Virus record (IMG/VR): IMGVR_UViG_2703718777_000015
Reading direction: 5' to 3' (one strand)
Length of the DNA stretch: 64,000 bases
From: a virus
Taxonomy: Duplodnaviria; Heunggongvirae; Uroviricota; Caudoviricetes
Shown here: positions 4,345 to 63,938 of the stretch, piece by piece
Layout of the letters: each line of letters opens with the position of its first letter
Position numbering within the stretch: position 1 is the stretch's first letter
Notes under the pieces: model-generated
Told to the model about the DNA's origin: nothing
Database searches by the model: none
Seen by the model: the letters and a program-made list of their open reading frames with translations, nothing else
Position numbers and translations under genes: made by a program

Positions 4345-4706
4345 CACTATCAGCTATTGAGTTAATGGATCTCAGCGATAAGTTGGATGCTCTGATGTCC
4401 AAAGCGGCTACCGCGAGTGGCATGGAGTTGCTGGATATCAGCGATGAAATTGACCAGATCATGCAACAGATGGGGTACGGCGCGTCCGGCGGCAGTAGTG
4501 GCGAGGAAAAACAACCTTCGGTACATGATGGTGTGCCAAAACTGGTTGCTGATTTCCTGGCTGATAAATTCGTCGATCAGAGCACAGATGCATTTATCGG
4601 TACCTTGCAGGACTTGAGTCAATATGTTGGCACATACATCGACCTGGACCAGGTTAAACAGCACACGGCGGCATGGATAGCCGCCAACATTAAAGAGGCA
4701 GCATAA
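4341..4706 (+). CDS. ddrA: DdrA-like protein (darA operon)
   Basis: 121-aa ORF overlapping darA stop. Confidence 0.55.
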   Translation: MTLSAIELMDLSDKLDALMSKAATASGMELLDISDEIDQIMQQMGYGASGGSSGEEKQPSVHDGVPKLVADFLADKFVDQSTDAFIGTLQDLSQYVGTYIDLDQVKQHTAAWIAANIKEAA

Positions 4707-4718
4707 GGCGTAACAGGG

Positions 4719-7706: not shown

Positions 7707-8004
7707 AATCGCAGCGCCATTAGGCGGAGATGCCATTATCGAATTTGATGATAATGAAGAAGTTTCCGGGCGTTTAAGCATTATCTCCGGTGACATTACC
7801 GAGGACATGATCGCTGAAGCCATAGCTGGAGCAAATCCCAATAGCTATATGGGATTCGTTAACACCCTTGATGCTCCCGCAAGTGATGTTCTCCGAACGC
7901 TGCATCTTTATGCTGGCTGGTTTGTTGATTGGCCTGTTGTAGATGGTGGCGATGAGGACGACGACGATGATTTTGGTGATCATATAGACCAGATCATATA
8001 TTAA
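7696..8004 (+). CDS. Acidic small protein, last gene of darA operon
   Basis: 102-aa ORF overlapping ddrB stop, Asp-rich C-terminus. Confidence 0.4.
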   Translation: MQIKIAAPLGGDAIIEFDDNEEVSGRLSIISGDITEDMIAEAIAGANPNSYMGFVNTLDAPASDVLRTLHLYAGWFVDWPVVDGGDEDDDDDFGDHIDQIIY

Positions 8005-8006
8005 AG

Positions 8007-8033
8007 AAATCCCGCCAATCGGCGGGATTTTTA
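8007..8033. terminator. Bidirectional intrinsic terminator between convergent operons
   Basis: Hairpin AAATCCCGCC-AATC-GGCGGGATTT followed by T-run; approximate coordinates. Confidence 0.55.
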
Positions 8034-8035
8034 CC

Positions 8036-9130
8036 TCACGAGAAGCTCTTTTCTGATGTCAGCCAACAGTGCTCGTGCAAATCTCTTGGTGGTTTTTCGA
8101 CAAATGCCTCTTCAGCCACATCCTGCCAGGGGATTTGTTTAGCCCATTCAGCTATAGCGTTATGGTTTGCCGAGAATAACGGTATTGTATAGGCCTTCAG
8201 CCAGTCTAATGTGCTGGAGTTGTGTTTTTGAGCGTGATGTTTCGCATGGTGTTTGGCGATCACGATCGTAGGCACTACCCATTTACTACCGTCAGTCATT
8301 GTGAAGTGCATATTACGGGGAACAGATGACTTTTCCATCAACTCCCGAATCCCGGGAAATTTCCCCAAGATCAATCGGCGATATTCATCGCTATTGCGCC
8401 CACCAAACTCTTTGGCTTTGAATTCAAGATATGCTTCAGAAACGAGAGGTGAATCCTCTGTGTTTAGAGTTATCGCCGTGAAAAAACCAGCAGGATTGTT
8501 TTTACTATGGGCCAACCGGTGATGCGAATCATAAAAGTACCCTTTCTCGCGTTCCGATGGTTTCGACAGCAACAGCAGGCGCGAGTCATAATTGGTTAAA
8601 TTGCCAGTTATCACTGCATGAGCGCGATCGCTGATTTCCGCCGAGTTAATAACGATGAAAAGATCGTGCGGTCCAGTAAAACCAGCCAGAGACACTTCGT
8701 TATTCAGACAATAGGTTATATAGACGCATCCCCATATTTCACTGATATGCACCAACCCTTTGTCAGGGTGCATTCTGAAATGATTGCCAAGAAAAGGGTG
8801 TTTTTGGGTAACTTGCTCCCAATAACGGAACATATAGTCAATTATTGTTTTTCGACTATCGTTAATAGCAGGAGAAACAACCACTGTACGGGAACACGAA
8901 TACAGTATTGTTTGCAGGATGCTAATCACTGCCACAATAGAGGTTTCCCCAATACCATGTGGTGTGGTGGCAGTGACTTTGGCTCCGGTGTTCTTTATCG
9001 CGTTAATAATTTTTGCTTGATGAGGTGTTAACTCAATATCAAGCAACTCTTTCGCTGCCAGTTCCCAATTGTCTTTATACTGTTCTATCAGTGCTAACCA
9101 GGCAGGTTCATTCTGTATACGATTAGTCAC
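8036..9130 (-). CDS. Terminase large-subunit ATPase-domain paralogue with degenerate Walker A/B motifs
   Basis: 364-aa ORF; clear similarity to PacB (28367..29851) N-terminal half (e.g. GYFYDSHHRLA vs [24 protein letters not shown] vs [13 protein letters not shown]); P-loop reads PHGIGETS (PacB GHGTGKSD), Walker B reads IVINSAE (PacB YIIDEAS); no nuclease domain. Confidence 0.6.
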   Translation of the reverse strand: MTNRIQNEPAWLALIEQYKDNWELAAKELLDIELTPHQAKIINAIKNTGAKVTATTPHGIGETSIVAVISILQTILYSCSRTVVVSPAINDSRKTIIDYMFRYWEQVTQKHPFLGNHFRMHPDKGLVHISEIWGCVYITYCLNNEVSLAGFTGPHDLFIVINSAEISDRAHAVITGNLTNYDSRLLLLSKPSEREKGYFYDSHHRLAHSKNNPAGFFTAITLNTEDSPLVSEAYLEFKAKEFGGRNSDEYRRLILGKFPGIRELMEKSSVPRNMHFTMTDGSKWVVPTIVIAKHHAKHHAQKHNSSTLDWLKAYTIPLFSANHNAIAEWAKQIPWQDVAEEAFVEKPPRDLHEHCWLTSEKSFS

Positions 9131-9917
9131 TTTCCACCTCTTCCGTGGTGTTTTCTTGCAGTTCTGTTAATGCAGCACGACACAGGTTCCGGGCCTTGGC
9201 TATAGCCACACTTTTGACTTCATCTGTCATCGTGCAGGTAATGTACTGATCGAGTTCTTCAGCGCGGATGATGCTTTTGCCAATCAGAAACTGTATTTGC
9301 CAGAGCAGATCGGCATCCATAATCAGAATTTCTGCCGGGCCTTCAGGGCCAGCCGGGAAGGAAACATAAGACTGTTTGCCAAGGCCGATAACTCGACAAC
9401 TTGCTTCAAGAATTGCGCGCTTGAGGTCTGACTTTGTAACTGAAACAGGTTGATTTTCACCTGCGATTACGCCGTTGACATGGATGTGGAAGGGCATGTA
9501 GCTTGAAATTCGCTCTACTTTCCATACGCCAGCAAGCGATCCTTCATGCAGCACAATGGGGGTAACAGCGAGTTTCATCTCACCATATAACTGCTGGCAG
9601 ATAGCTGGATTGCTGAATACATCCAAAGGTTCACACTCAAACAGCGGTGCAATCTGCATGAGGTCCATCATGGTCATACCTGGGGTACGAGCGGTAATGA
9701 ATCTGCGCATGCCAGTATCCATTGTTCGCCAGATAGCTACACCATGCTTTTTGCTCACTTCTTCAGTAAAGCCAAGGTGGCACATGATGGTTTTTTCGAT
9801 AGCCAGATCAGAGATAGAAACCTTTTCGCCTGGCACTCCATCATTATTGATGGTCACTTCGACACTCTGGCCATTACGTAGGCGGTATTGAATGGTTTTA
9901 GTATTTTGTGCTGTCAT
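9123..9917 (-). CDS. Hypothetical protein, upstream partner of terminase-like gene
   Basis: 264-aa ORF overlapping the start of the 364-aa ORF by 8 bp (operon). Confidence 0.45.
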   Translation of the reverse strand: MTAQNTKTIQYRLRNGQSVEVTINNDGVPGEKVSISDLAIEKTIMCHLGFTEEVSKKHGVAIWRTMDTGMRRFITARTPGMTMMDLMQIAPLFECEPLDVFSNPAICQQLYGEMKLAVTPIVLHEGSLAGVWKVERISSYMPFHIHVNGVIAGENQPVSVTKSDLKRAILEASCRVIGLGKQSYVSFPAGPEGPAEILIMDADLLWQIQFLIGKSIIRAEELDQYITCTMTDEVKSVAIAKARNLCRAALTELQENTTEEVESD

Positions 9918-14418: not shown

Positions 14419-17400
14419 ATGAACAAGCTATCTATGGGGGTATTTCGCTGTTCAAGTGTCAGCGAAATATTGAAATATATTAGGGCAATAACATCTCACC
14501 GAGCGCCGATTAAATACGGCGTGGAAAAGGTGGAAGGCAAAAGCTATGACCGACTGCGCCGGGAGGCGAATCAGAAGGCGATAGATTTGCTTAATTCGCT
14601 GGTGGACGGCGCGACACTGACAGATGAACAGCGCCAGATCCTGGCTGGGTACACCGGTGAAGGCGGCATTGGCGGGTCCGTCTCCGAATATTACACACCA
14701 AAGCCGATCGCTGAAGGTGTCTGGGAGATCATGAAGCTCTACGGCGCGGACGTAGGTAACACTCTGGAACCATCGGCGGGAACCGGCGTTTTTAATGAGA
14801 CAAAACCGGTTGGTACGGTGATGACCGCGACTGAGATCAGCAGTGTTTCCGGTCGTATAAACCAGTTGTTACACCCGGAAGACAGCGTACAGATTTCCCC
14901 GTTCGAACAGCTGGCTATAAGCACTCCTAACGATTCATTCGACCATGTTGTGGGTAACGTTCCGTTCGGCGGTCGTGATAACACACGCAACATCGATAAG
15001 CCTTACGCAGAAGAAACGGACATGGGTTCTTACTTCATGCTCCGCATGCTGGACAAGATAAAGCCAGGCGGATTCATGTGCGTGATTGTGCCGCCGTCCA
15101 TTGTTTCAGGTTCAAACATGAAGCGGTTACGCCTGCGCTTATCCCGTAAAGCTGAATTTCTTGGCGCTCACCGCTTGCCTACCGGTACTTTTGACGCAAA
15201 CGGGACCAGTACAGTCGTTGATGTGGTGCTGATGCGCAAACATCCGGCAGAGATGGCTGAGAAAATCCCCCTGGTGGATGAAAGCACTCTTGAATCGGCA
15301 AATGTGCTTTGGCCAACGTTTATTTCTGGCAAGTGGTTTGAAAAGGATGGCCGCCGGTTTGTTCATGGTACCCAGGAAAAGGGCTTCCAGGGGCGTATTG
15401 AGGTTCGTGCCGACGGGCAGATTGATAACCAGGCTCTTAAAGCGAAGCTGATTCATCGTTTCGAAAGTCGTATCGACTGGTCTTTGCTCGATATGGCTGA
15501 ACCGTTACCGACCGCAGATGTTGTTGATGAAGGGGAAATGCGCCTGATTAATGGCGTATGGCAAAAATATGCTGGTGGTCGCTGGATTGAAGCTGATGCC
15601 GGGAAGGAACTTAAGATCGATGCTGCCAGTTATGGCGCGGATAGCTGGGAGGCTCTTCAGCGTAACCTGACTACAACAGAAGGCCGTCTCGGCATGACAT
15701 TTACCCAGATGGCAAATGTCCGCGATAAGTACACCACATCAATCAGCGACGATATGGTGCAGCTGGTGGACTGGATTAACAGCCAGCCTGAAAAATACCG
15801 TGAACGCTTGTATCGCGGGGCGATGATTGGCCGGATGTTAATTGAATATCAGGACATGAAGGCCGCCGGGCATAGTGCTGAACAAATCGAACAGCAGCGC
15901 CTTTCTCTGGTATCCCGTTTGCAGGCAGAGATTGACCGTTTTGGTAACCCCGGTCGCGGTCCGATAGCGAAATTATCGGGGAGCGGTGCGCGCGCCTGGT
16001 TTGCTTTCCGTGGTGCAATTAAGCTGGATGGCACTATTTCTGACGAGCTGACAGGAAAGCTGGTTACGCATGATTCCAGCGCAAGTTATGACTCCACCAG
16101 CTATCAGGACACCCTGCGTTATCTCTACAGTGATCTCACTCGCGATCCAATCCAGCTCGATGATTTCCGCCTTGCGTTTACCGGCGAACTGCCAGCCAGT
16201 GATGAAGAGTTGCTTAATTTATTGGCCAGCACCCCTGGTATTGCGGTTTCACCGTATGGCGGGATTGTTCCGTTCGCCCGCGCCACCAGCGGCGACATTA
16301 ACGAGATAGTGGCTCCAAAACAGGAATTCCTTGCCACACTCCCCGACGGTCCAGTAAAGAACAACGTCCTTAATCAGCTGGCAGCGATCGAAGAGAAGCG
16401 CATCAAGACGCCAGCAGAGAATATCCGCTTTAAGCTCAATAGCCGTTGGTTCGACCGCTCCGTCATTCTGGAGTTTTTGCAGGAAAACGGCTATCCGGAT
16501 CTGCGCTATGTGCAGTCAGTGCAGCTGGAAGGCGACGAAATGGTTTCTGACACCTATCACGGTGGTGATGGTCTGTTCGTCGGGCACCGATACGGTGTCG
16601 TCCAGCGCAAGGATAAAGAAACAGGCGAGATCCACTACGAGTGGGACCGTAAATCAGGTGAAAACGCGACCGGGTTCCCGGCACAGCTGGAAAAGTATCT
16701 CAATGGTGCGCGTATCGGTGGCAAAGATAGCGCGACGGCGAACGGCTACCGCGAGCAGATGGCACTGCTTGAGGACCAGTTCAATAAGTGGATCAAGACG
16801 CACGATCGCTACGATGAGCTGGTTGCCAAATACAACGATGTTTTCAATAGCAATATTCCGTATGAACACTCTGGTGATCCGCTTGGGTTGAAGGGATTAA
16901 GCGGTAAGCGTCAGCCATTTGATTACCAGAATAGCGAGGTGCGCCGACTGTCCGAAGATGGGCGCGGCATCCTGGGCTTCGGCACCGGGCTGGGTAAAAC
17001 CACGACCGCGCTGGCGCTTGAGGCGTTCAACTATGAGAACGGTCGTTCCACCCGTACTGCGTATGTAGTGCCTAAATCAGTGCTGGAAAACTGGTATTAC
17101 GAAGCAAAAGAGTTTCTGAGTGAAGAGGCATTCAGTAACTACCTGTTCGTCGGTCTTGATGTGCTGATGGATGGCGATCAGATTCGCCAGGTGCCGGTGC
17201 TCGATGAGAACGGTAAACCTGTCGTTGGTGCAGATGGCACTCCCGTTATGCGCGATGCCCTTAAGCTGGCAGATGAAGCCACTATCACGGCGCGGATGAA
17301 CGCGATCCCGCACTCAAACTACCGTGCAGTCGTGTTTACCAAAGAACAATACGCCCGCATTCCGCTACGTGATGACACCGTAGATGAGCATGCACAAGAC

Positions 17401-20400
17401 ATGCTTTATGACTTCGTTGCTGCCGGGCGTGTGGCCAGCGCAATGGACTCCGATTCCCATCGCAAAGAGGCGGCGCGTCGCCGGGTATTGTCGGAGTATT
17501 CAGATACCGGTACCGAAAAAGCAGAGAAGTATCCGTACTTTGAGGATATGGGCTTCGACAGCGTGATTGCTGACGAAGGCCACAACTACCGCAATAGCTA
17601 TAAAAATGGTCGCGAAGCGTCACAGCTGGCCTATCTGCCCACCAGCGCGGTGGCGCAATCGGCGCGAGATATGGCAATCAAAAACGCGTACCTGATGAAA
17701 AAGAATGGTGGGCGTGGACCGGTTCTCCTGACTGCAACGCCAGTCGTTAACACCCCGATCGATGCATACAACATGCTTTCTCATGTTCTGCCGAAGGAAT
17801 ACTGGCAGAAGATGGGGATCTACGGTCCTGATGACTTCGTTAAATTCTTCGGCAAGACCAGGCTGGAAACGGTACAGAAAATCAGCGGTGAAGTTGAAGA
17901 AAAAATGGCGCTGGTGGGCTTTGAAAACCTTGATGCGCTGCGCGGCATATTCCATCGCTGGACAACGCTTAAAACGGCGGAAGACGTTAAGGATACCGTG
18001 GAGATCCCGGAGCTGGACGAACACCAGCAGGATGCACCACTTACTGAAGAACAACTGGCGGCGTATGAAGAATTGCGTCAGCAGGCGGAAGCGGCGGCCA
18101 AAGCCAACAATGGCGTAACGACCTCGGTCGATGAAGACGGAGTGATTGAGCACGAGAAAGCCCGTCCGATCTTCTCAATAATCAGGGATATGGACCGCGT
18201 ATGTACTGACATGGACCTGTACTATCGCCGGATCACCTATCGTTTCCTGCCGGAGTACGCCGATGCGGTGCAGCAGCTGGCGGACAGTTTGCCCAAACAA
18301 GCCACCAGCGAAGACGACGACAGTGATGATTCAATCACGCAGCAATCGCAATACTCCCTGATAGATAAGGGCGAGTTTATTCAGTTGCAGGTTCCGGAAG
18401 CGTTCGAGCAGGAAGTGAATAAGCGCTTGGCCAAGTTTGGCATTGACGAACAGACCGTAACTCACCCCGTTACGCCCAAATACGTGAAGCTGATCGCCAC
18501 GCTGAAGGAGTTTTTCCCGGAAGGTAAGCAAATCATCTTCACGGACGAAAAAACGCAGCACCAGAAGCTCAAGCGCATTATCTGCAATGCTCTTAACCTT
18601 GAACCTTCAAAGGTGGGGATCCTGAATGCTCAGACGGTTGCCGAGGCAGGTAAAACCGGTAAGAAACTGAAAGCGGTTAAACCGCCGAAAGAGTTACCGG
18701 ATGAACCAACAGATGCACAGATAGCGAAATACAACGAGCAAATGGCTCTGTATGACGCCTATATCGCGCAGCAGAATGAAATGTCGTTGGGCGGTCTGGA
18801 AAAGATTGCAGCCGACTTCCAGGAGGGCCGGACTCCGATCATCATCTGCAACAAAAAGGCAGAGGTGGGTATCAACCTGCATCGAGGAACGACTGACATC
18901 CATCATCTGACGTTGCCATGGACACCAGCCAGTATCGCACAGCGTAACGGTCGCGGTGCCCGAGTTGGCTCCAACCGTGCAAGCGTTCGCGTTCACTACT
19001 ACTGCGGCAAGGGTTCTTTCGATGAATACCGACTGAAGACGCTGAAGCGTAAAGCAGGCTGGATCTCCGATATCCTCCGTTCAGATAAGTCAGAAATGGA
19101 GAACGCCGACGCCAACGATATGATCGAAATGCAGATGTATACCGCTAAGGATGATGGCGAACGTCTGGCAATGATGCAGGTTCAAATGGATAAGGCGAAA
19201 GCCGCGCAACGCGCTCGCCAGAAAGAACAGGCTACTATCGACCTTCAGAACTACATCAAGGCGCAGCACGCAGCTGGCGAGGATGTGGAGGTACTTACCG
19301 CTGAATTAGAGCGAAGCAAAGCGGAACTTGAAAAGACCACCGCCGAGGTAGCTAAATTCAAACAGGCGGTAATGGCCAAAGCAGCTGATAACGCAGACTG
19401 GAAAGCCCGCTGGGGTAGCGTCCATCACACAGACCGTACGTTGTTAGCACAGTATCGCGCGTCGTTGAAAAGCGCCATTCAGCGCAAGGCTAATATCTCT
19501 CAAGCCATCTCCCGCTATGAGAAATTATTGAACCGTACTCAGAAGGCCGCGACGGATATCAAACGCCTGCGCCCGCTGGTGGAGGATGCAATAAATAAAG
19601 GCATTCTGGATGTTGATCCTGACCTGGTTAACCATGCGAGTGGGTTCCTTGTTATCGGCGATCGCTCATGGCGTGTAGGCCAATACTACGATTGTGCCGG
19701 TGATATCGTTCGCATTAAGTCGCTGGACTTCGACAGCCAGCGCGCAGACGTGGAGATTATCTTTACCTTCAAAGGTACCAAATCGGGTAACTGGGATGTG
19801 AAGACGCTGGATAAACAGGTTGATGTAACTCCCGATGAAGATGCTGTTATGCAGAAAATCAGTGGTGGCGTCTCCATCGCCGGGATTAACGACATCATTT
19901 CCTGTGACGATTTCTACCGTTTCCAGCAGCGCGGCATGATCAAAATCACTGACTCATACGGCGTTCAGACTACAGAGTCAGGCTATAGCATCGATTTTGT
20001 TGGTACCTATACGGACCCACTGAAGCATGCGGTTTACCCGGATCGCCGTGACGGCGCGCTGAAGTCGTCAATTGCAAAATGGGTGCTTGGTATGATGTCG
20101 GAAGGGAATAACCGCCAGATCCGTTCGGCAGAAACATTCCTGGTTGAACTGTTTGGCTCCAATTATGGCGATGTAATCGCGTCATACGGAGATACGCTAT
20201 CCCCTGAAGCAATTCAGGAGAAAATAGCGGATGCGATCGCCAGAATGCCGGAAAAAACAAGCCAGGGGGCTACTCGTAACGGGGATTCTGAACTTGAAGT
20301 CACCAATGCCATTTTCGGTACCAATGAGTTCCGGGCGTCAGATTATGAGATCACCACAGCACAGTTTGGCACCATTGGCATTTACAGCAATAAAGACGAG

Positions 20401-21186
20401 ATCAAACAGTCAATGGACGCTGCAAGCGCGCGCATTGCAGCAGAACGCAAAGCCAATCTGAATCATGCAGTTTCCGCGCTGACTCAATCGTGGGTAACAG
20501 CAATCAGGGAGGCCGCCACCACAGGAAAAATCACACCGGCAATTGCGGATGTCGTAAACGACGGCTCTAAATTTATGGATGCCTATAAAATGGATGCGGT
20601 GCAGTTGCCATCAGCCTATGGTCAACTCAGCTATCGCATGACCTACAACCTGGTATCAATGTTTTCCGACCTTGCCATCCTTGGGCTGGTGGATCTTAAC
20701 GAGGTTACGCCGGAATTGCTCAGCATGCGCAAGAATCATGTGGAGATATTGCAGAGAATTAACACGGTTCTTGCTGGGCGCTCCGATGAAGAGAAACAGG
20801 CCGACGCTGATCGGATAAACCTGGCCCTTGGCAACATCACGGAGGAAGAGATTGCCGCCAGAAACGAGAAACAAGAAGAGTTATCATCAATACAGGGTGA
20901 TGCCACCAGCATAGCTCAGTCTCTTGGTCTGAATTATCGCGTATCCACCGCCGACCTGAAGATGATGTACGCACCAAAATTCGCCGCTGGCGAGGTATTT
21001 GGGCTTCAGGAAGCCTCAGGCATGAAAGGCGTTCTTTTCCGTGCGAAAGACGCAATCAAGGCGAAATTCGGCGCTCGCTGGCTGCCAGCGAAGGCGAAGA
21101 ACAGCGATTTCCCGGGTAACTGGTGGATTATCGAGACAAAACACAACGTGGCGGACGTTCTGGCCGTCATCCAACAATACGCATAA
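14419..21186 (+). CDS. darB: DarB antirestriction protein (methyltransferase-helicase fusion, packaged in capsid)
   Basis: 2255-aa ORF; N-terminal N6-methyltransferase-like region and central SF2 helicase motifs (GTGLGKTT, DEGHNYRN). Confidence 0.85.
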   Translation: MNKLSMGVFRCSSVSEILKYIRAITSHRAPIKYGVEKVEGKSYDRLRREANQKAIDLLNSLVDGATLTDEQRQILAGYTGEGGIGGSVSEYYTPKPIAEGVWEIMKLYGADVGNTLEPSAGTGVFNETKPVGTVMTATEISSVSGRINQLLHPEDSVQISPFEQLAISTPNDSFDHVVGNVPFGGRDNTRNIDKPYAEETDMGSYFMLRMLDKIKPGGFMCVIVPPSIVSGSNMKRLRLRLSRKAEFLGAHRLPTGTFDANGTSTVVDVVLMRKHPAEMAEKIPLVDESTLESANVLWPTFISGKWFEKDGRRFVHGTQEKGFQGRIEVRADGQIDNQALKAKLIHRFESRIDWSLLDMAEPLPTADVVDEGEMRLINGVWQKYAGGRWIEADAGKELKIDAASYGADSWEALQRNLTTTEGRLGMTFTQMANVRDKYTTSISDDMVQLVDWINSQPEKYRERLYRGAMIGRMLIEYQDMKAAGHSAEQIEQQRLSLVSRLQAEIDRFGNPGRGPIAKLSGSGARAWFAFRGAIKLDGTISDELTGKLVTHDSSASYDSTSYQDTLRYLYSDLTRDPIQLDDFRLAFTGELPASDEELLNLLASTPGIAVSPYGGIVPFARATSGDINEIVAPKQEFLATLPDGPVKNNVLNQLAAIEEKRIKTPAENIRFKLNSRWFDRSVILEFLQENGYPDLRYVQSVQLEGDEMVSDTYHGGDGLFVGHRYGVVQRKDKETGEIHYEWDRKSGENATGFPAQLEKYLNGARIGGKDSATANGYREQMALLEDQFNKWIKTHDRYDELVAKYNDVFNSNIPYEHSGDPLGLKGLSGKRQPFDYQNSEVRRLSEDGRGILGFGTGLGKTTTALALEAFNYENGRSTRTAYVVPKSVLENWYYEAKEFLSEEAFSNYLFVGLDVLMDGDQIRQVPVLDENGKPVVGADGTPVMRDALKLADEATITARMNAIPHSNYRAVVFTKEQYARIPLRDDTVDEHAQDMLYDFVAAGRVASAMDSDSHRKEAARRRVLSEYSDTGTEKAEKYPYFEDMGFDSVIADEGHNYRNSYKNGREASQLAYLPTSAVAQSARDMAIKNAYLMKKNGGRGPVLLTATPVVNTPIDAYNMLSHVLPKEYWQKMGIYGPDDFVKFFGKTRLETVQKISGEVEEKMALVGFENLDALRGIFHRWTTLKTAEDVKDTVEIPELDEHQQDAPLTEEQLAAYEELRQQAEAAAKANNGVTTSVDEDGVIEHEKARPIFSIIRDMDRVCTDMDLYYRRITYRFLPEYADAVQQLADSLPKQATSEDDDSDDSITQQSQYSLIDKGEFIQLQVPEAFEQEVNKRLAKFGIDEQTVTHPVTPKYVKLIATLKEFFPEGKQIIFTDEKTQHQKLKRIICNALNLEPSKVGILNAQTVAEAGKTGKKLKAVKPPKELPDEPTDAQIAKYNEQMALYDAYIAQQNEMSLGGLEKIAADFQEGRTPIIICNKKAEVGINLHRGTTDIHHLTLPWTPASIAQRNGRGARVGSNRASVRVHYYCGKGSFDEYRLKTLKRKAGWISDILRSDKSEMENADANDMIEMQMYTAKDDGERLAMMQVQMDKAKAAQRARQKEQATIDLQNYIKAQHAAGEDVEVLTAELERSKAELEKTTAEVAKFKQAVMAKAADNADWKARWGSVHHTDRTLLAQYRASLKSAIQRKANISQAISRYEKLLNRTQKAATDIKRLRPLVEDAINKGILDVDPDLVNHASGFLVIGDRSWRVGQYYDCAGDIVRIKSLDFDSQRADVEIIFTFKGTKSGNWDVKTLDKQVDVTPDEDAVMQKISGGVSIAGINDIISCDDFYRFQQRGMIKITDSYGVQTTESGYSIDFVGTYTDPLKHAVYPDRRDGALKSSIAKWVLGMMSEGNNRQIRSAETFLVELFGSNYGDVIASYGDTLSPEAIQEKIADAIARMPEKTSQGATRNGDSELEVTNAIFGTNEFRASDYEITTAQFGTIGIYSNKDEIKQSMDAASARIAAERKANLNHAVSALTQSWVTAIREAATTGKITPAIADVVNDGSKFMDAYKMDAVQLPSAYGQLSYRMTYNLVSMFSDLAILGLVDLNEVTPELLSMRKNHVEILQRINTVLAGRSDEEKQADADRINLALGNITEEEIAARNEKQEELSSIQGDATSIAQSLGLNYRVSTADLKMMYAPKFAAGEVFGLQEASGMKGVLFRAKDAIKAKFGARWLPAKAKNSDFPGNWWIIETKHNVADVLAVIQQYA

Positions 21187-21219: not shown

Positions 21220-21660
21220 ATGGCCACACTATCTGATACAATAAAACCGAATAAAACATATCTTGAGGCGGTACTCCGTACAGCGTTGTTAGGAAAGACA
21301 GAAGACGAATACGTTGATTTCTTCCTGTCAGGGCTACGCGGGCGATTACTGAAAAATCCCCGCCTGTACCGCAGCTATGGTCCATACTGGCCGGAAATTA
21401 AAAAATTATTACTGGAGCGCGGTTATGGTAATTTCGGTCGTCTCGTTGACCGTGACGTTCGCAAAATTTACCGTTATGACCGTCCGGCGCTGACGCTCAT
21501 AGCCGCGACGCTCTACAGCCAGGAGCGTTTTGATAATGGTCAGATATACTCAGCCTGGCATTTACTGCCAGTGCCTGAAGAGGTTGACGACCAGGACTAT
21601 GAGTTTGAGTCTTACGATTTGGAAGTTGAAGCCTTGGCACAGGCTGGAGAGAAAACTTGA
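21220..21660 (+). CDS. ulx: Ulx-like protein downstream of darB
   Basis: 146-aa ORF, darB-ulx-lxc order. Confidence 0.5.
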   Translation: MATLSDTIKPNKTYLEAVLRTALLGKTEDEYVDFFLSGLRGRLLKNPRLYRSYGPYWPEIKKLLLERGYGNFGRLVDRDVRKIYRYDRPALTLIAATLYSQERFDNGQIYSAWHLLPVPEEVDDQDYEFESYDLEVEALAQAGEKT

Positions 21661-21905
21661 AAAAGCGATACTACACAGTAAAGCATGGGACGCTACGAGC
21701 ATTACAAGAGTTTGCTGACAAGCATAACGTTGAGGTGCGCAGGGAAGGGGGAAGTAAAGCTCTGCGCATGTACCGTCCGGACGGAAAATGGCGGACGGTC
21801 GTCGATTTCAAAACTAACAGCGTTCCCCAGGGCGTCCGCGACCGGGCATTCGAGGAATGGGAGCAGATCATCATAGATAACGCATTGCTCCTGAATGCTG
21901 ATTAA
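21657..21905 (+). CDS. lxc: Lxc-like C1 co-repressor
   Basis: 82-aa ORF overlapping ulx stop. Confidence 0.5.
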   Translation: MKKRYYTVKHGTLRALQEFADKHNVEVRREGGSKALRMYRPDGKWRTVVDFKTNSVPQGVRDRAFEEWEQIIIDNALLLNAD

Positions 21906-21910
21906 GAACT

Positions 21911-21937
21911 CTCCGGCCTAGGGAGATTAGGCCGGAG
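21911..21937. terminator. Bidirectional terminator hairpin between lxc and SIR2-like gene
   Basis: Inverted repeat CTCCGGCCTA...TAGGCCGGAG between convergent genes; approximate. Confidence 0.5.
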
Positions 21938-21946
21938 ATAAATATA

Positions 21947-23251
21947 CTATATAAACTTAGATATAATATCGTGAATCTGTTGTAGCGGGATTTCTTCCAT
22001 CTTACTCTTAATAAGAGAGCGGTTAGATGCTGTCAGTGAAGGCCATTTTGTTTTCCAGGCTAGATATGCTCGCCATGAGTAGCCTGTTTCGTAAGGTTTA
22101 TTCATATAAGTCATTGAGTGTTCAACCGCATGTATGTATTTTTTCTCAAAGTTGGTTCCTTTTACTTCAAATAAACTACCGAAATAAATAAGCCATTTTG
22201 CCAGGTGTTCATACTGCTCCCATGCGCCAGACTCTTTAGTAAGATCTATTTTTTTATCTATTATATCACAAAAAACATTTAATACCTTTTCATCATTCCA
22301 GCTATATCCAGATGATGAAATGGAGGAAATGATATGATAAAAAGAATCCTCTAACTTCAAGAACTCTATTTTATACTCTCTTCCGTTTTTTATTACCGAT
22401 TTGATTGAGTGCCTCAATTTGTCTTTTATTTTTTTTGCTTCTGGAATTTTCTTGTTAAGTTTTCTAAAGAAATCAGACACCTCTGTTTTATCTATAACCC
22501 TAATCCCAAAGCAGGAAAAATAGTAATCTTTAATAGGTTGCAATAGTTTCCCTCGGGAAATAAGGAAAATATTGGAGGACATTACGTTGTCCCGTGAAAA
22601 TACCTTATATTCATTTATAATCGCCTTGAGGTTCGCGTCACTTAGAGAATAGCCAAGAATAACAATAGTGTTTTCATGTAGAACTGTGCTTAGTTTATTT
22701 GAAAAGTAAGAATTACCATTTATAAATCTGAAATAATCCTCGCTAGTAACAACCATATCTGATGGGGAGTCTATAGAGCCGTGAACATGGTAGACTTTAA
22801 CCTCACAATTATATTTTGGAATTGGCAGGCCGGGGGTGATTGTACACGTTCGATTCTCTCCAGCCAGTTTTTCTGCTAACTTGTCATAATTTGTCGTAAT
22901 TACTTTAAATGTGTTTTCTTTGAAAAAGTCTTGAATATATTCAATTGATGGATCAAGTTCGATTGAGGCTATGATTTTCTCAATCTCCTGGTAAATATTT
23001 TTCCCCGAAAGTATAAATTTTAGTGCAATAACCTGAGCAGCCTCTTCAAGGCTAAGGTCTTTTGCTTTTCCATCAGGAAATAATTCCTCTTTGAGTGAGT
23101 CACCATCCTTCAATAAACCGCACAGTTGCTCCAATAAAGATTGCCAACTTGGGGCTTTATCATCAGAAACAGCCTTTGAAAATCCAGTGCCTGTAAGAAA
23201 GCACAGCCTATGTGTAGCTGCTGCATAGGCAATTTCTATATACTCGCTCAT
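21947..23251 (-). CDS. SIR2_2-family (sirtuin-like) protein with unknown C-terminal domain; candidate NAD-depleting defence effector
   Basis: 434-aa ORF; motifs FLTGTGFS...PSWQSLLEQL, VITTNYDKLAE (N121), VYHVHGS (H157), IVILGYSLSD typical of SIR2_2 domains (ThsA/DSR-like); markedly AT-rich compared with flanks; sits at the P1 res/mod position. Confidence 0.7.
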   Translation of the reverse strand: MSEYIEIAYAAATHRLCFLTGTGFSKAVSDDKAPSWQSLLEQLCGLLKDGDSLKEELFPDGKAKDLSLEEAAQVIALKFILSGKNIYQEIEKIIASIELDPSIEYIQDFFKENTFKVITTNYDKLAEKLAGENRTCTITPGLPIPKYNCEVKVYHVHGSIDSPSDMVVTSEDYFRFINGNSYFSNKLSTVLHENTIVILGYSLSDANLKAIINEYKVFSRDNVMSSNIFLISRGKLLQPIKDYYFSCFGIRVIDKTEVSDFFRKLNKKIPEAKKIKDKLRHSIKSVIKNGREYKIEFLKLEDSFYHIISSISSSGYSWNDEKVLNVFCDIIDKKIDLTKESGAWEQYEHLAKWLIYFGSLFEVKGTNFEKKYIHAVEHSMTYMNKPYETGYSWRAYLAWKTKWPSLTASNRSLIKSKMEEIPLQQIHDIISKFI

Positions 23252-23307
23252 TACTTACTCCATTTACTTATAGTTCTACGGAGAAGTATACCCTAATGCA
23301 TTGACGT

Positions 23308-23961
23308 TTATAGATAATTTCCTTTTCCTGTTAATACTCCCTTAGGCACCTGTTTTTGTGCCAGCGTTTGGGTTCCGCGAATTATGTTAATCAGAGGGCT
23401 TAGTAACGATGGTTCCTGGCGTGCCTCAACTTCTCCAGCCATTGCCCTGATGTAGTCTGCGCTGGCAACGTTGTTGTATTCCGTCGCAAAGCAACATAGT
23501 AACGTCAGAACATGCTCTGTCGTTATTTCGCTCCAGTTGATGTTGAAAAATTCATCGCCTTTTTTGTCGTGTTCGGAATCGAAGATGCTTTGGTGGAGGA
23601 TGTATTTGCCGGATTCTTTGCGCGGTAACTTGATCGCTTTCTGGCGTTCCAATTCCTTGTAAATCTGCATTGCTTCAATCAGTACCGGCCTGCCGTTCAT
23701 AAAGGGATCTCGCAACCTTACACGCTGGCCAACTCGACCAGTAATAAAGCTGTTTTCCTCTTCCACCAGCACGATAAAACCCTTTTCCTCTTTTTCTCGC
23801 AATTCGCGCAGCAGCTGGAGTTCCATGTCGCGGCGGCGTTCAGGGTAGCTGGTCCGCTCAGCCATTATCAGCTCATTGTTGATCCATGCAGCAGTCATTG
23901 ACGCCGGTTTGCCGACGCTCATTGAAACAACGCATATTTTCTTATCCATAGCGCCCCACAA
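23308..23961 (-). CDS. Hypothetical protein; either Mat (maturation) homolog or partner of the SIR2-like gene
   Basis: 217-aa ORF between ref and the SIR2-like gene, same strand, backbone-like GC content. Confidence 0.4.
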   Translation of the reverse strand: MWGAMDKKICVVSMSVGKPASMTAAWINNELIMAERTSYPERRRDMELQLLRELREKEEKGFIVLVEEENSFITGRVGQRVRLRDPFMNGRPVLIEAMQIYKELERQKAIKLPRKESGKYILHQSIFDSEHDKKGDEFFNINWSEITTEHVLTLLCCFATEYNNVASADYIRAMAGEVEARQEPSLLSPLINIIRGTQTLAQKQVPKGVLTGKGNYL

Positions 23962-24136
23962 AAAAGAAAAGCCACCAGCGGCGGCTTAGCAATACAACTG
24001 AAGGTAGCGCCCGGTACTCAGACTGTGCCGTCCATGGAATATTTGAAAAGGGATCCATCCGTACCGGGCGTGTGATGATTCTGACTGAAGTCACTTGTCA
24101 GTTGTCAATTATTTCAGATTAAAAATAATATATTTA

Positions 24137-24697
24137 TTAGTGCATGATGTTTGCCATCTCATAGGCGTCAGCCAGCAACTCCATCTCTGACTTGTTAAGC
24201 AAGGTGAATTCTTTCTTGCCTCCAACCACACCATCGGCATGAACAGGGACCAGCCAAGGGTATTTTTCTCTTACTTCAGCCGGTGCTGCATGCTGGTGGT
24301 GCCATCTGCAAAGGGGCAATTGCTTTTTGTGACAACCCGGCGCGGTACGACCGGAGATATGGTGCAGAGACACCTCTTCAGATATTACTCCATGCATGTA
24401 GCAGGCAATGCAGGGGAGAGCGCCAAGAGCATTGGCGATGCGCCGTTCCTCCGCCGTTGGTGTTCTCCCCTTCAAGCCACGAGATTTTATTTTTACCGCG
24501 CTTTTCCGCGTTTTGCTGGCTGGTGGGCGCTCTTTCTGTTTAGCGATACGGCGGTCGATAGTATCCCGCATTTTCTGATATTGCGATTCTCGCCAGGCGG
24601 GGTCAGCCAACTTTTCCCGTTGCCGAGCGATCGCTCGTTCTCTGGCTGCCTTCTGCCACTCGCGGCGCTGTTCAATTTTTTGTTCGATTGTTTTCAT
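24137..24697 (-). CDS. ref: Ref recombination-enhancement HNH endonuclease
   Basis: Track ORF 24137..24802; start at Met36 gives 186 aa; C-terminal Cys/His HNH-type motif. Confidence 0.8.
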   Translation of the reverse strand: MKTIEQKIEQRREWQKAARERAIARQREKLADPAWRESQYQKMRDTIDRRIAKQKERPPASKTRKSAVKIKSRGLKGRTPTAEERRIANALGALPCIACYMHGVISEEVSLHHISGRTAPGCHKKQLPLCRWHHQHAAPAEVREKYPWLVPVHADGVVGGKKEFTLLNKSEMELLADAYEMANIMH

Positions 24698-26337: not shown

Positions 26338-26755
26338 TTAACACTCAGATAATGGTTTTAAGTAAAGTGTACAGGATCGGCTCTGCCTTTACCTGTTTAT
26401 GGTTCTCGTCATAGAAACGCCAGCGACCGCGCGTGCGTTCTATTTTCTCTTCACCGCGCGATAATGACAGTTGACAACTATCACGATCAAACCCTTTTTC
26501 CCGCCAGTAACCACGGTTTTTCTCAAGCTCAAGATGAGTGGACACTTTAGCAGCTGAATATCCCATTTTTCACCTCTGATTGATTGGTGGTGCTAAGTGC
26601 GCTACGCGAAATCTGGAGCACTAACACTGCCAACATTTCGCAGATTTTACGTAGCGCAACCTTGATCAAATGATCAAGTGATCACTATTTGACCTGATAA
26701 GGTATTGAACTGTATGGATTTACAGGTAAATTGATCATGTTCAATAACCCTTAAG

Positions 26756-26789
26756 ATAACTTCGTATAATGTATGCTATACGAAGTTAT
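26756..26789. other. loxP site
   Basis: Exact ATAACTTCGTATA-ATGTATGC-TATACGAAGTTAT about 420 bp upstream of cre; coordinates approximate to a few bp. Confidence 0.93.
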
Positions 26790-26909
26790 TAGGTCCGAAG
26801 AGGAGTTTACGTCCAGCTGCGCATAAAAATCAAGAAATATTAGAGCAATAAATTTTGAGAGAAAAATCCCACTCCACCAGCCAAAAACTGGATTGTTTTT
26901 CATAGTTGT

Positions 26910-26936
26910 TTGACAATTGCTCTAATAAATTATAGT
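26910..26936 (+). promoter_or_regulatory. C1-operator-overlapped promoter directed toward coi/c1
   Basis: TTGACA then ATTGCTCTAATAAATTA then TATAGT; approximate. Confidence 0.5.
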
Positions 26937-27170
26937 TTTGCCGCCGTTTCGTAATACGACTTTGGATTCACTATTTAATGTGTCTTCAGCGTTGTAGAGC
27001 GGCTCAGAAGGAAATGAGCAAACAGGGAAACCTTATACAACGGCATTACAGCTATGCATTGCTCATCTTACACACAGCGCAATGTTGTTAGATTACCCCA
27101 GCATGGATCATGGGTGAAACAGTAGGTCAGAGCTTCAGGCTCTGTGTTGTCAATACAGTGAGGCATAATT

Positions 27171-57179: not shown

Positions 57180-57631
57180 CCTCTCACTCCATTATTTAAC
57201 GAATAAAAAAGCTGCGGTGCCGGGTGCCTCCCGGTATCCTTTGGCTGGTTATCTACCGTGGACGGGGAAACAAGGAGAAATAATGGACAGATATAACCAT
57301 TTCCCCGCGTGCGCTTAGCCGCATTCACCGCAACGGAAAGAGCATTCTTGGTGGACCTGTAGATTGGGATATGACCCCGTTACGCCAATGTTCTCAACGT
57401 TGTAGTGCCGGTTACGGTTCCGGCCAGGCCTCTTCCTCAACGTGGTGTTCTCCATACGGACTACCGTTTATTGGTCGTTCCTGCGGTTTATGTTGTGAAG
57501 CCAGATGCTTATCTTCTGGTTGCTTCAAAGAGCTGCACTTCCTCACAACGGTAAGGGTACTTCGTAGGGATTCGAACCCTCTGCCAAGCTCGGCGATCTC
57601 CGACGTCGCAAAATACCCTTACCTGTTGTGC

Positions 57632-57706
57632 TGGTGCCGATTAACGGACTCGAACCGCTGACATCCTGCTTACAAGGCAGGCGCTCTACCAACTGAGCTA
57701 AACCGG
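57632..57706 (-). tRNA. tRNA-Thr (anticodon UGU)
   Basis: Cloverleaf with GCTCAGTTGGTAGAGC D-arm, CTTGTAA anticodon loop, GGTTCGAGTCC T-arm, encoded CCA; approximate. Confidence 0.7.
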
Positions 57707-57708
57707 CA

Positions 57709-57784
57709 TTGGCGATGGTGGATGGATTTGAACCATCGACCCGTTGATTAACAGTCAACCGCTCTAACCGCTGAGCTACACCAT
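57709..57784 (-). tRNA. tRNA-Asn (anticodon GUU)
   Basis: Cloverleaf with CTGTTAA anticodon loop, GGTTCAAATCC T-arm, encoded CCA; approximate. Confidence 0.7.
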
Positions 57785-58439
57785 CACTTGCCGGGTACGT
57801 CTCCGGCGAGGGCTTCCACCTCCGTATGCTTTTCGGCGCACCGCGCCCTGGCTGCAATTCGGTAACAGGGGATGCATAACCCTGGCTTCCAGCGTGATTA
57901 GCGCTTTCAGCATGACGGGATATACCCGTAAATTCGTGGAACTGTACCCAAAGTGCTGTTAAGCACCGCTGTTACGCTGAAAAGAAGACGCAACAGGAAA
58001 GGACGCTGACCAACAGATGGCCCCTTCTCGTTCATCTGGTTAATCACACCAGCGCCCTTACCTGTTGTGCCTCCCCGTTCCCTAATACACAGACGGGGAC
58101 ACTCTGCGGTCGATTTTTTGACGGGGGGCGACTCATACCCCGTGGCGTCTGGCTTCTTAGGCCGCTACCATCATCAGATCATCGTTTGCATTTACTTTAA
58201 TGGTCAGTTTCTAAACCGCCGCAAAGTCGCTAACCATGACGAAAACCCTGAAAAAAACGCCCACCCGAAGATGGGCAAACTGGAAGCTCGTAACGCACTT
58301 CGGAGTTGCCACTTAGGCGCATGGTCAACCTGGCAACTCGGTGGTTTGTCTGGGAGGACTAGGCCCAGCCATGCTTACCGCCGCGCCTGTCGCGGCTAAC
58401 AGCTAAATCGCTTTATAAATCACGATTCATTGAGGCGAT

Positions 58440-63545: not shown

Positions 63546-63938
63546 ATGTCTGATAAAGTAACAGTAAAGCAAACTATCAACAAAGCGACTTCAATCTACA
63601 AAATTGAGCACATCACTGTTGGCAAGCCAGGATCTGAACAATACCGTCATGCTTTCGAGCTTGCCGATCAGCTTGGTTTAAAACACCCGGATTGCATCGA
63701 GCATGTATTTCCGACCTATGCTGATGAGCAATGTACTCATGTTCTTACCGAAGAGGATTTTTTCAGCACTGAAGAACGAGAAGGCGTTGATCGTTGCATT
63801 GGTGTGATTTGCTCTTCAGTGAGTTATGAGTTATTCCCTAATGTCCATGAAAATGGTGGTATTGGATACCAATTTCTGTACGAAGGCGATGAGCTTAAAT
63901 GTTATGAACATGGTCTTCTTATCGAGAGCGTAGAATAA
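63546..63938 (+). CDS. Hypothetical protein
   Basis: 130-aa ORF. Confidence 0.4.
   Translation: MSDKVTVKQTINKATSIYKIEHITVGKPGSEQYRHAFELADQLGLKHPDCIEHVFPTYADEQCTHVLTEEDFFSTEEREGVDRCIGVICSSVSYELFPNVHENGGIGYQFLYEGDELKCYEHGLLIESVE

What the first reader, a model, noticed from the sequence alone, without database searches (positions are those of the whole stretch)
21905..23310. The SIR2-like gene is a compositional island
By eye the SIR2-like ORF is strongly AT-rich (roughly mid-30s % GC, long runs such as aaaaaataaaagacaaattg) whereas the flanking genes (217-aa gene, ref, cre, darB) look like the roughly 45-50% GC backbone. The insert is bounded by a terminator hairpin on the lxc side and a short AT-rich promoter-like spacer on the other. 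This pattern is typical of a recently acquired cargo gene.
Basis: seen in the sequence. Interest (0 to 1): 0.6.

Follow-up and report, generated by a model that had tools for sequence, protein, structure and literature searches.

The report
AT-rich SIR2 cargo in P1 hotspot
The AT-rich island is real, but it is an ordinary swappable cargo cassette in the known res-mod hotspot of P1-like phage-plasmids, carrying an untested stand-alone SIR2 enzyme that most likely defends the host by destroying NAD+.

Summary
ORF 21947-23251 (minus strand) is 35.4% GC against 48.2% for the window. It is the lowest of 56 ORFs (z -4.9) and has deviant synonymous codon use (z 8.6).

The window is a P1-like phage-plasmid. 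The island (21906-23307) fills the mat-lxc slot where P1 carries res-mod. This is the published RD-1 hotspot, already described as AT-rich. The left breakpoint is exactly the lxc stop codon. The right one is graded across the last ~55 nt of mat. The hairpin and the 56-bp spacer belong to the cassette, not to the backbone.

"Recently acquired" is not supported:
- Every occupant examined is 32-38% GC, including P1 res.
- Homologues are AT-rich in every host, including 39% GC inside a 68% GC contig.
- The gene varies by up to 7% among 66 plasmids, and a second allele (59% amino-acid identity) occupies the same slot in 58 more.
- No close donor exists outside P1-like elements.

The protein has a SIR2_2 domain with an invariant N-Y-D...H catalytic set and a private 180-aa alpha-solenoid. 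It is always a stand-alone gene. It probably acts as a DSR2-like abortive-infection NADase, but this is untested.

It is a new member of a known kind, of modest interest.

The parts
21657..21905 (+). lxc (C1 modulator). This is conserved P1 backbone, and its stop codon is the sharp left breakpoint.
   Evidence: Alignment with P1, RCS47, 673R5, JL22 and the allele-B plasmids is near-identical up to the stop codon and unalignable from 21906.
21906..23307 (.). The compositional island: a 1402-bp exchangeable cargo module in the mat-lxc (RD-1, res-mod) slot.
   Evidence: GC is 35-36%. RCS47 has only 39 bp here, P1 has res-mod plus IS5 (6.3 kb), 673R5 has a RelA/SpoT cassette and JL22 has a PIN gene. 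No flanking direct or inverted repeats were found.
21910..21938 (-). Stem-loop (11-12 bp stem) between the convergent lxc and SIR2 genes. It is terminator-like for the SIR2 transcript and belongs to the cassette.
   Evidence: -22.2 kcal/mol, z -4.9, with a T-rich tail only on the minus strand. Each cargo variant has a different hairpin here, and the 93% variant of allele A has the same one.
21947..23251 (-). SIR2-family ORF of 434 aa.
   Evidence: One search gives the translation. Pfam SIR2_2 scores 83.8 bits against a cut-off of 24.5. It matches phrog_7567 over its full length, function unknown. AF2 mean pLDDT is 80.7.
22490..23251 (-). N-terminal SIR2 (NADase-type) domain, residues 1-254.
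   Evidence: Foldseek top hits are the DSR2, ThsA and KomC SIR2 domains (E 1e-8 to 4e-11). phmmer against PDB gives the same set.
22883..22891 (-). Catalytic-pocket residues N121-Y122-D123.
   Evidence: Translates to NYD. All three are invariant in 40 homologues. They align with the DSR2 TTNYD motif. DSR2 N133/Y134/D135 are pocket residues, and the Y134A and D135A mutants lose NADase activity (PMC11263360).
22781..22783 (-). Catalytic His157.
   Evidence: VHG translation. Invariant in 40 homologues. It aligns with the DSR2 KVHG histidine, H171.
21950..22489 (-). C-terminal all-helical alpha-solenoid domain (residues 255-434), the presumed sensor.
23252..23307 (-). 56-bp mat-SIR2 spacer with a GGAG ribosome-binding site (23261-23258). 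It is part of the SIR2 module.
   Evidence: Sequence. It is 55-56 of 56 identical in the 59%-identity allele B plasmids and absent from other cargo variants. No terminator-like site lies between mat and SIR2.
23307..23334 (-). Candidate sigma-70 promoter TTAACA-16 nt-TATAAA overlapping the mat stop codon (weak, inferred).
   Evidence: Read. It was missed by the scan because the -10 lacks the final T. It is conserved in SIR2 alleles A and B, while the -10 is degenerate in the P1, RCS47, JL22 and 673R5 versions.
23308..23961 (-). mat (maturation control), backbone gene. Its last ~55 nt (23308-23365) form the graded right junction.
   Evidence: phrog_1837. Annotated as mat in relatives. Alignment identity is about 60-75% up to roughly 23365 and near-identical beyond. 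The variable part co-varies with cargo type.
24078..24145 (-). Conserved C1 operator Omat plus the Pmat/LPmat promoters upstream of mat. These are a possible read-through source of SIR2 transcription.
   Evidence: The alignment is near-identical to P1 in this stretch. Coordinates were read.

Best explanation
The island is a 1.4-kb exchangeable cargo cassette in the mat-lxc slot of a P1-like phage-plasmid. This is the slot where P1 itself carries the EcoP1I res-mod genes.

How cassettes move (inferred): they are swapped between P1-like elements by homologous recombination in the conserved flanks, lxc on one side and the body of mat on the other. SIR2 alleles are also swapped by recombination within the 5' end of the SIR2 gene.

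Why it is AT-rich: the cassette comes from the AT-rich pool of mobile defence genes. Its AT-richness says nothing about how recently it arrived.

What it contains: its own ribosome-binding leader, one gene and its own terminator hairpin.

What the gene encodes: a stand-alone protein with an N-terminal defence-type SIR2 domain carrying an intact N121-Y122-D123...H157 pocket, and a family-specific 180-aa alpha-solenoid.

Most likely mechanism (inferred, not shown): in the lysogen the protein is idle. Binding of a protein from an infecting foreign phage to the solenoid activates the SIR2 domain. The domain then hydrolyses NAD+ and aborts the infection, as in DSR2. This protects the population that carries the P1-like plasmid.
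For: Shown:
- P1 backbone synteny darB-ulx-lxc / mat-ref-c8-cre-cra at 96-98% identity.
- Sharp breakpoint at the lxc stop and a graded junction inside the mat 3' end.
- An 'empty' site of 39 bp in RCS47, and other cargos in P1, 673R5 and JL22, all 32-38% GC.
- The slot is the published RD-1 / region 1 hotspot, with low G+C already noted (PMC6906374; PMC9603915).
- No transposon-like repeats at the borders.
- The SIR2 cargo is in 124 of about 699 PLSDB plasmids that carry ulx-lxc: 66 with allele A and 58 with allele B. For comparison, P1-type res is in 108, the RelA/SpoT cassette in 52 and the PIN gene in 23.
- The spacer is shared between alleles whose ORFs are only 63% identical at the nucleotide level.
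- Alleles L017 and L018 are a mosaic: 96-99% identity over the first 300 nt, 74-91% over the rest.
- SIR2_2 domain and invariant catalytic residues.
- Structural neighbours are the anti-phage NADases DSR2, ThsA and KomC.
- The C-domain is an alpha-solenoid, as in the DSR2 sensor region (PMC11263360).
- The architecture is fixed and there is no conserved partner gene in seven contexts.
- Homologues sit beside a prophage integrase in E. coli and among nuclease, helicase and STAND genes in Halomonas, Vibrio and Paracidovorax.
Against: - No experiment on this protein or family was found in the searched literature.
- PADLOC and NCBIfam defence models match only the SIR2 domain.
- A DefenseFinder census of P1-like elements does not list it.
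- Expression in the lysogen is not established. There is no scan-grade promoter, and the upstream mat operon carries a C1 operator and a late promoter. The gene might therefore be expressed mainly in lytic growth, which fits a prophage-borne defence less well.
- I did not verify that every res, CapRel or PIN hit lies in this slot.
- Recombination in the flanks is inferred from sequence patterns only.
Confidence: 0.68

Rival explanations
1. One reading: the SIR2 gene was acquired recently by this lineage from a low-GC donor and has not yet ameliorated to the composition of the backbone.
For: There is a strong GC, GC3 and codon-usage contrast with a sharp edge. The gene is absent from the P1 and P7 references and from all 50,697 phage records.
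Against: - Allele A varies by up to 7% among 66 plasmids while the left flank stays about 99% identical.
- A 59%-identity allele shares the same slot and spacer.
- P1's own res is 34.7% GC.
- Homologues stay at 33-39% GC in hosts of 49-68% GC.
- The best relative outside the P1-like slot is 61% identical.
- The only chromosomal copy inspected, of two chromosomal places, lies in an integrated P1-like element.
Confidence: 0.12
2. The protein is a true sirtuin, that is, an NAD-dependent protein deacylase as RefSeq names it. It would modify a phage or host protein as a regulator of the P1 life cycle, placed downstream of the maturation-control gene mat.
For: RefSeq product name 'SIR2 family NAD-dependent protein deacylase'. 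It has the same orientation as mat with no terminator between them. Omat and LPmat lie upstream.
Against: - Only PF13289 (SIR2_2) matches, with no hit to the canonical sirtuin family.
- The six cysteines form no CxxC zinc motif (read).
- All sequence and structure neighbours are anti-phage NADases.
- The gene is dispensable, since most P1-like elements lack it.
- Homologues occur in unrelated non-P1 contexts.
Confidence: 0.05
3. The cassette serves the plasmid rather than the host. It would be either a post-segregational killing (addiction) module replacing the addictive res-mod, or a counter-defence enzyme that degrades NAD-derived immune signals, placed next to the anti-restriction genes darB and ulx.
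For: The slot normally holds res-mod, which also stabilises P1 (PMC6906374). The neighbours darB and ulx are anti-restriction genes. P1-like elements often carry the anti-Thoeris gene Tad2.
Against: There is no antitoxin-like partner ORF in the 1.4-kb module. Chromosomal homologues outside plasmids argue against a plasmid-stability role. No known SIR2-domain anti-defence protein came up in the structure searches.
Confidence: 0.07

Closest known systems
RD-1 / 'region 1 (res-mod)' variable hotspot of P1-like phage-plasmids (Venturini et al. 2019, PMC6906374; PMC9603915)
   Same: The position is the same: P1 3469-9749, between the mat and lxc stop codons. The same AT-rich against backbone contrast is seen, and different elements hold different unrelated cargo.
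   Different: Those papers do not mention a SIR2 occupant (0 occurrences of SIR2; sirtuin not found). Here the occupant is a single minus-strand gene with its own leader and hairpin. I find it in about 18% of PLSDB plasmids that carry ulx-lxc, in two deep alleles.
DSR2 (defence-associated sirtuin 2, Bacillus subtilis)
   Same: Single-protein system with an N-terminal SIR2 NADase domain that has the N-Y-D...H pocket. It is the top Foldseek hit. It is followed by an all-helical repeat region that in DSR2 binds the phage tail-tube protein.
   Different: DSR2 is about 1005 aa, with HTH, helix-bundle, six-HEAT-repeat and C-terminal domains, against 434 aa here. NCBIfam Dsr2 scores 30.6 bits against a cut-off of 1400. 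Identity is about 15-17% and confined to the SIR2 domain. The trigger here is unknown.
Thoeris ThsA
   Same: The SIR2 domain is similar in sequence and fold (PADLOC ThsA E 7e-18; PDB 7uxt, 6lhx and 8bto), with the same catalytic Asn/His dyad.
   Different: There is no SLOG/STALD signal-binding domain, since the C-terminus is a helical solenoid. There is no TIR-domain ThsB neighbour.
Other occupants of the same P1 slot: EcoP1I res-mod, the RelA/SpoT (CapRel-like) cassette of vB_EcoM-673R5, and the PIN-domain gene of JL22
   Same: Same slot, similar AT-richness (32-38% GC), each with its own hairpin after lxc, and each plausibly a defence or toxin gene.
   Different: The proteins and mechanisms are unrelated. 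res-mod is transcribed in the opposite direction, co-directional with lxc.
Homologous stand-alone SIR2 gene next to the integrase of a lambdoid prophage in E. coli (P0083)
   Same: 56% identity over the full length, the same two-domain architecture, 33% GC in a 49-52% GC context, and a position at a mobile-element edge typical of prophage cargo.
   Different: The carrier is an integrated prophage rather than a P1 plasmid, and it is too divergent to be the donor.

Membership tests
Cargo of the P1 RD-1 (res-mod) hotspot | Lies between the stop codons of mat and lxc in an otherwise syntenic P1-like backbone. | tested here: met
   P1 3469-9749 corresponds to window 21906-23307.
Cargo of the P1 RD-1 (res-mod) hotspot | Alternative, unrelated sequences occupy the same place in related elements, including an empty site. 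| tested here: met
   RCS47 has 39 bp, P1 has res-mod, 673R5 has RelA/SpoT, JL22 has a PIN gene, and there is SIR2 allele B.
Cargo of the P1 RD-1 (res-mod) hotspot | Low G+C relative to the backbone. | tested here: met
   35.4% against 48.2%. Other occupants are 32-38%.
Defence-type SIR2 NADases (Pfam SIR2_2, PF13289) | Domain score above the Pfam gathering threshold. | tested here: met
   83.8 bits against 24.5, residues 117-245.
Defence-type SIR2 NADases (Pfam SIR2_2, PF13289) | Catalytic Asn-Tyr-Asp motif and His present (ThsA N112/Y113/D114/H152; DSR2 N133/Y134/D135/H171). | tested here: met
   N121, Y122, D123 and H157 are invariant in 40 homologues and align to DSR2 and ThsA.
Defence-type SIR2 NADases (Pfam SIR2_2, PF13289) | NAD+ hydrolysis on phage infection, and protection from phage. 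| not testable with these tools
   No experimental report was found.
DSR2 (NCBIfam NF041819) | Full-length match to the ~1000-aa equivalog model (cut-off 1400 bits), with a long HEAT-repeat and C-terminal partner-binding region. | tested here: not met
   30.6 bits, SIR2 domain only. The protein is 434 aa. The C-domain is a short generic solenoid.
Thoeris (ThsA + ThsB) | SLOG/STALD ligand-binding domain fused to SIR2, and an adjacent TIR-domain ThsB gene. | tested here: not met
   The PADLOC ThsA match covers only profile positions 107-215. The C-terminus is all-helical. There is no neighbouring gene inside the island.
SIR2-HerA (Nezha) | Adjacent HerA-type ATPase gene. | tested here: not met
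   The island holds one ORF. No HerA gene lies next to the homologues in six other contexts. Only the Halomonas locus has a separate 401-aa + DUF87 pair about 1.4 kb away.
Canonical sirtuin protein deacylases (Pfam SIR2, PF02146) | Match to the canonical sirtuin model and a Cys4 zinc-binding module. | tested here: not met
   Only PF13289 is reported at E of 0.01 or better. There is no CxxC pair among the six cysteines.
PADLOC candidate PDC-S25 | Full-length match to the ~517-528-aa candidate model. | tested here: not met
   The match covers only protein residues 100-253 and profile positions 127-283 of 517.

The most novel reading that the evidence does not exclude
The 434-aa 'SIR2 plus private alpha-solenoid' proteins form an unrecognised stand-alone anti-phage system, in effect a miniature DSR.

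It is the commonest of the four occupants I counted in the classical P1 res-mod slot: about 18% of PLSDB plasmids that carry ulx-lxc, at least as many as carry the textbook EcoP1I-type res.

Its two deep alleles and mosaic variants would reflect sensor diversification against different phage triggers. The shared leader would act as a fixed expression socket for swapping alleles.
Probability: 0.55. Interest if true: 0.45.

Novelty: new member of a known kind. Interest (0 to 1): 0.3.

Why it matters
- It shows that a textbook locus, P1 res-mod, is a defence-gene socket. In natural P1-like plasmids it holds this uncharacterised SIR2 gene in at least as many PLSDB records as match the EcoP1I-type res gene.
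- It warns against reading AT-richness as evidence of recent transfer. Here it is a stable trait of a mobile gene family.
- If the protein proves to be a compact single-gene NADase defence, it would be a small, tractable model for how a short helical sensor switches on a SIR2 effector.
- It would also be relevant to how widespread P1-like plasmids in clinical and livestock E. coli shape phage susceptibility.

Tried and rejected
- A mean log-likelihood codon index and length-normalised chi2 did not separate the gene (z 0.1 and 0.35). The backbone has nearly flat codon usage and short genes are noisy. I replaced these with a simulation conditioned on amino-acid content.
- I tested whether the 207-aa gene upstream of the Pseudoalteromonas homologue is related to Mat, which would make mat a partner gene. 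There is no similarity (E 0.3) and no Pfam hit.
- I searched for a P1 late-promoter (-22 box AAGTGACTT) upstream of SIR2. There is none in the spacer or the mat 3' end.
- I looked for transposon or integrase signatures at the borders. Only short chance-level repeats were found.
- Rfam and tRNA scans found nothing in the island.
- I searched the phage collection for the gene at DNA and protein level. There were no P1-like hits, only 28-34% SIR2-domain matches in Streptococcus and Mycolicibacterium phages.
- The AFDB Foldseek library was unavailable.
- Literature searches for the RefSeq protein accessions and for SIR2 in P1-like elements gave nothing specific.
- A chance compositional fluctuation is rejected, because this is the unique minimum of the window.
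Full report
**1. The observation**

A sliding GC profile drops from 0.49-0.54 to 0.33-0.35 between about 21900 and 23300 and then recovers.
- The finding's interval is 35.7% GC and ORF 21947-23251 is 35.4%. The window is 48.2% and equal-length flanks are 50.7% and 49.1%.
- The lowest 1305-bp window of all 64 kb starts at 21938, and nothing else falls below 40%.
- Among 56 ORFs of at least 100 aa, this one has the lowest GC (z -4.9), and the lowest GC1, GC2 and GC3 (GC3 33.1%, z -3.3).
- With amino-acid content held fixed, its synonymous codon choice departs from the pooled backbone: chi2 117 against 41 +/- 9, z 8.6, 0 of 2000 simulations. Only darB, which is five times longer, scores higher.
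- The protein is also rich in K, I, S, Y and F and poor in A, R, G and V.

**2. Where this is**

The window is a P1-like phage-plasmid. The gene order is darB 14419-21186, ulx 21220-21660 and lxc 21657-21905 on the plus strand, then SIR2 21947-23251, mat 23308-23961, ref, c8, cre and cra on the minus strand. These match P1, RCS47 and other Punavirus records at 96-98% identity, with a gap exactly over the SIR2 region. P1 has res, mod and an IS5 at this place, coordinates 3469-9749.

**3. Breakpoints**

- Left side: in alignments with P1, RCS47, 673R5, JL22 and two plasmids carrying another SIR2 allele, similarity ends precisely at the lxc stop codon, window 21905.
- Right side: the 56-bp spacer is specific to the SIR2 cassettes. 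The last ~55 nt of mat (23308-23365) are only about 60-75% conserved and co-vary with the cargo. Near-identity resumes at about 23366.
- RCS47 is effectively an empty site, with 39 bp between the two stop codons.
- The hairpin at 21910-21938 is strong: 11-12 bp stem, -22 kcal/mol, z -4.9. Its T-rich tail lies on the SIR2 strand only.
- Every cargo variant brings a different hairpin, so the hairpin belongs to the cassette.
- No direct or inverted repeats, IS ends or recombinase genes flank the island. Exchange by homologous recombination in the conserved flanks is the simplest inference.

**4. This is a known hotspot**

Venturini et al. 2019 define RD-1 as P1 3469-9749 (res-mod). They describe it as replaced by different ORFs in each element and lying at boundaries between average-G+C and AT-rich DNA (PMC6906374). 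A 2022 survey lists res-mod as variable region 1 and links the variable regions with low G+C (PMC9603915). Neither paper mentions SIR2.

**5. Is it 'recent'?**

Four results argue against reading the composition that way.
1. All other occupants I measured are equally AT-rich: P1 res 34.7%, the rest of res-mod 35-39%, JL22 35.1%, 673R5 37.9%.
2. Homologous SIR2 genes keep a low GC in any host: 33% beside an E. coli prophage integrase (flanks 49-52%), 39% in a contig whose flanks are 68% GC, and 37% in Pseudoalteromonas.
3. The gene is in 66 PLSDB plasmids and 69 complete E. coli genomes at 92-100% identity.
   - A 93% variant differs at 60 synonymous and 29 non-synonymous codons, while its left flank is 98.9% identical.
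   - A further 58 plasmids carry a second allele of only 59% amino-acid (63% nucleotide) identity in the same slot and orientation. That allele has a virtually identical 56-bp spacer and an 85%-identical first ~85 nt, but a different hairpin.
   - Two allele-B genes are themselves mosaic: 96-99% identity over the first 300 nt and 74-91% thereafter.
4. Outside this slot the best relative is 61% identical. Of the two chromosomal places found, the one inspected is an integrated P1-like element with the same neighbours.

The gene family is a long-standing, recombining resident of the P1 accessory pool.

In PLSDB about 699 plasmids carry P1-type ulx-lxc. Counts of records matching each cargo:

| Cargo | Records |
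|---|---|
| SIR2 gene next to mat (alleles A + B) | 124 (~18%) |
| P1-type res | 108 |
| RelA/SpoT cassette | 52 |
| PIN gene | 23 |

I did not verify the slot position of every non-SIR2 hit.

**6. The protein**

- Pfam gives SIR2_2 (83.8 bits against a cut-off of 24.5) for residues 117-245 and nothing else.
- PADLOC, NCBIfam and PDB sequence searches hit only the SIR2 domains of PDC-S25, ThsA, LmuA, Dsr1/2 and KomC.
- PHROGs has a full-length family of unknown function, phrog_7567.
- Homologues of 53-61% identity and the same length occur across Gammaproteobacteria and some Betaproteobacteria.
- In an alignment of 40 homologues, N121, Y122, D123 and H157 are invariant (verified). They align with the DSR2 pocket N133/Y134/D135/H171 and the ThsA dyad N112/H152 (PMC11263360).
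- AlphaFold (pLDDT 80.7) gives a Rossmann-type SIR2 domain. Its best PDB neighbours are DSR2, ThsA and KomC, at E 4e-11 to 1e-8.
- A search of 1.84 billion cluster representatives with this domain alone found just 75 clusters. The full-length members are about 420-480 aa, and all 10 examined carry SIR2_2 at the N-terminus. The domain is therefore private to this architecture.
- No partner gene is conserved across seven genomic contexts. The neighbourhoods include a prophage integrase, HNH and PDDEXK nucleases, GmrSD, an SMC-like ATPase and STAND/TPR genes.

**7. Mechanism, and what is inferred**

Shown: the architecture, intact catalytic residues, stand-alone status, mobile and defence-type neighbourhoods, and allelic diversification.

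Inferred: the protein is an NADase held inactive until its solenoid binds a component of an infecting phage, after which NAD+ depletion aborts the infection. This works like DSR2, whose helical region binds the tail-tube protein. I put about 0.6-0.7 on this.

It is not a member of DSR2, Thoeris, SIR2-HerA or the canonical sirtuins. Defining features of each were tested and not met.

**8. Expression is open**

- The spacer supplies a GGAG ribosome-binding site 6 nt before the ATG.
- The consensus scan finds no promoter in the spacer and no terminator-like site between mat and SIR2.
- By eye there is a TTAACA-16-TATAAA element overlapping the mat stop codon. It is conserved in both SIR2 alleles and has a worse -10 in other cargo types. 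It lacks the conserved final T.
- Upstream of mat, the C1 operator and the Pmat/LPmat promoters are conserved. Read-through would tie SIR2 to derepression or late transcription.

**9. Verdict**

The compositional island is real and sharply mapped. It is an ordinary instance of a described hotspot, and the 'recent acquisition' inference does not hold.

What is modestly new is the occupant. It is an uncharacterised, compact SIR2-solenoid family that DefenseFinder-based surveys of P1-like elements do not report. Yet it is the commonest of the four occupants I counted.

Interest is 0.3, and the novelty class is a new member of a known kind.

Noticed in passing
L017:2279-3586 and L018:2273-3580 (plasmids NZ_CP067234.1, NZ_CP015837.1); corresponds to window 21906-23307: A second SIR2 allele (59% amino-acid identity to the window's) sits in the same slot in 58 further PLSDB plasmids. 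It shares the 56-bp spacer almost exactly but has different 3' hairpins. Two allele-B genes are mosaic: the first 300 nt are 96-99% identical and the rest 74-91%.
   Followed up: yes
window 23940-24110, minus strand: A terminator-like hairpin (23987-23969, followed by a T run) lies between the conserved Pmat/LPmat promoters and the 213-aa mat start (ATG 23949). A 2-bp indel next to it, relative to P1, would break the 250-aa Mat reading frame annotated in P1. This suggests that the short Mat is the real product and that the leader may attenuate transcription.
   Followed up: partly
window 56034-57785, minus strand: There are three phage tRNA genes: Met-type CAT anticodon, Thr-TGT and Asn-GTT. 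The SIR2 gene uses ATA (36% of Ile codons against 18%) and ACA (53% of Thr codons against 24%) about twice as often as the backbone. The phage tRNAs might therefore help express AT-rich cargo.
   Followed up: partly
L013:6001-7314 (metagenome contig, ERZ28656079): A 58%-identical homologue is 39% GC inside a contig whose flanks are 68% GC. It lies next to a phage-integrase-type gene and an HNH gene. This is an extreme case of the family keeping its AT-richness.
   Followed up: partly
window 14419-21186 (darB): darB has the strongest codon-usage deviation of any gene in the window (chi2 174 against 41 expected, z 14). Its GC3 of 57.7% lies above the backbone mean. The deviation may be partly an effect of its length.
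   Followed up: no
window 26600-27000 and 63546-63938: Two lesser AT-rich patches were seen: about 37% GC just beyond cra (the lox side), and an ORF of 130 aa with 41% GC and 34% GC3. Neither approaches the SIR2 island in length.
   Followed up: no
L021:9700-12667 (Halomonas, GCA_021404365.1): About 1.4 kb downstream of the Halomonas SIR2 homologue lie a 401-aa gene and a DUF87 (HerA-like) ATPase gene. They sit in what looks like a defence island with HNH, DUF4145, HSDR_N, FRG and STAND-TPR genes. Whether that pair is a separate SIR2-HerA-type system was not examined.
   Followed up: no
L005 (OP279344.1, 'P1 del res del mod'): This engineered P1 record carries two unrelated ORFs at 32.5% GC in the same slot. 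It was not treated as a natural variant.
   Followed up: no
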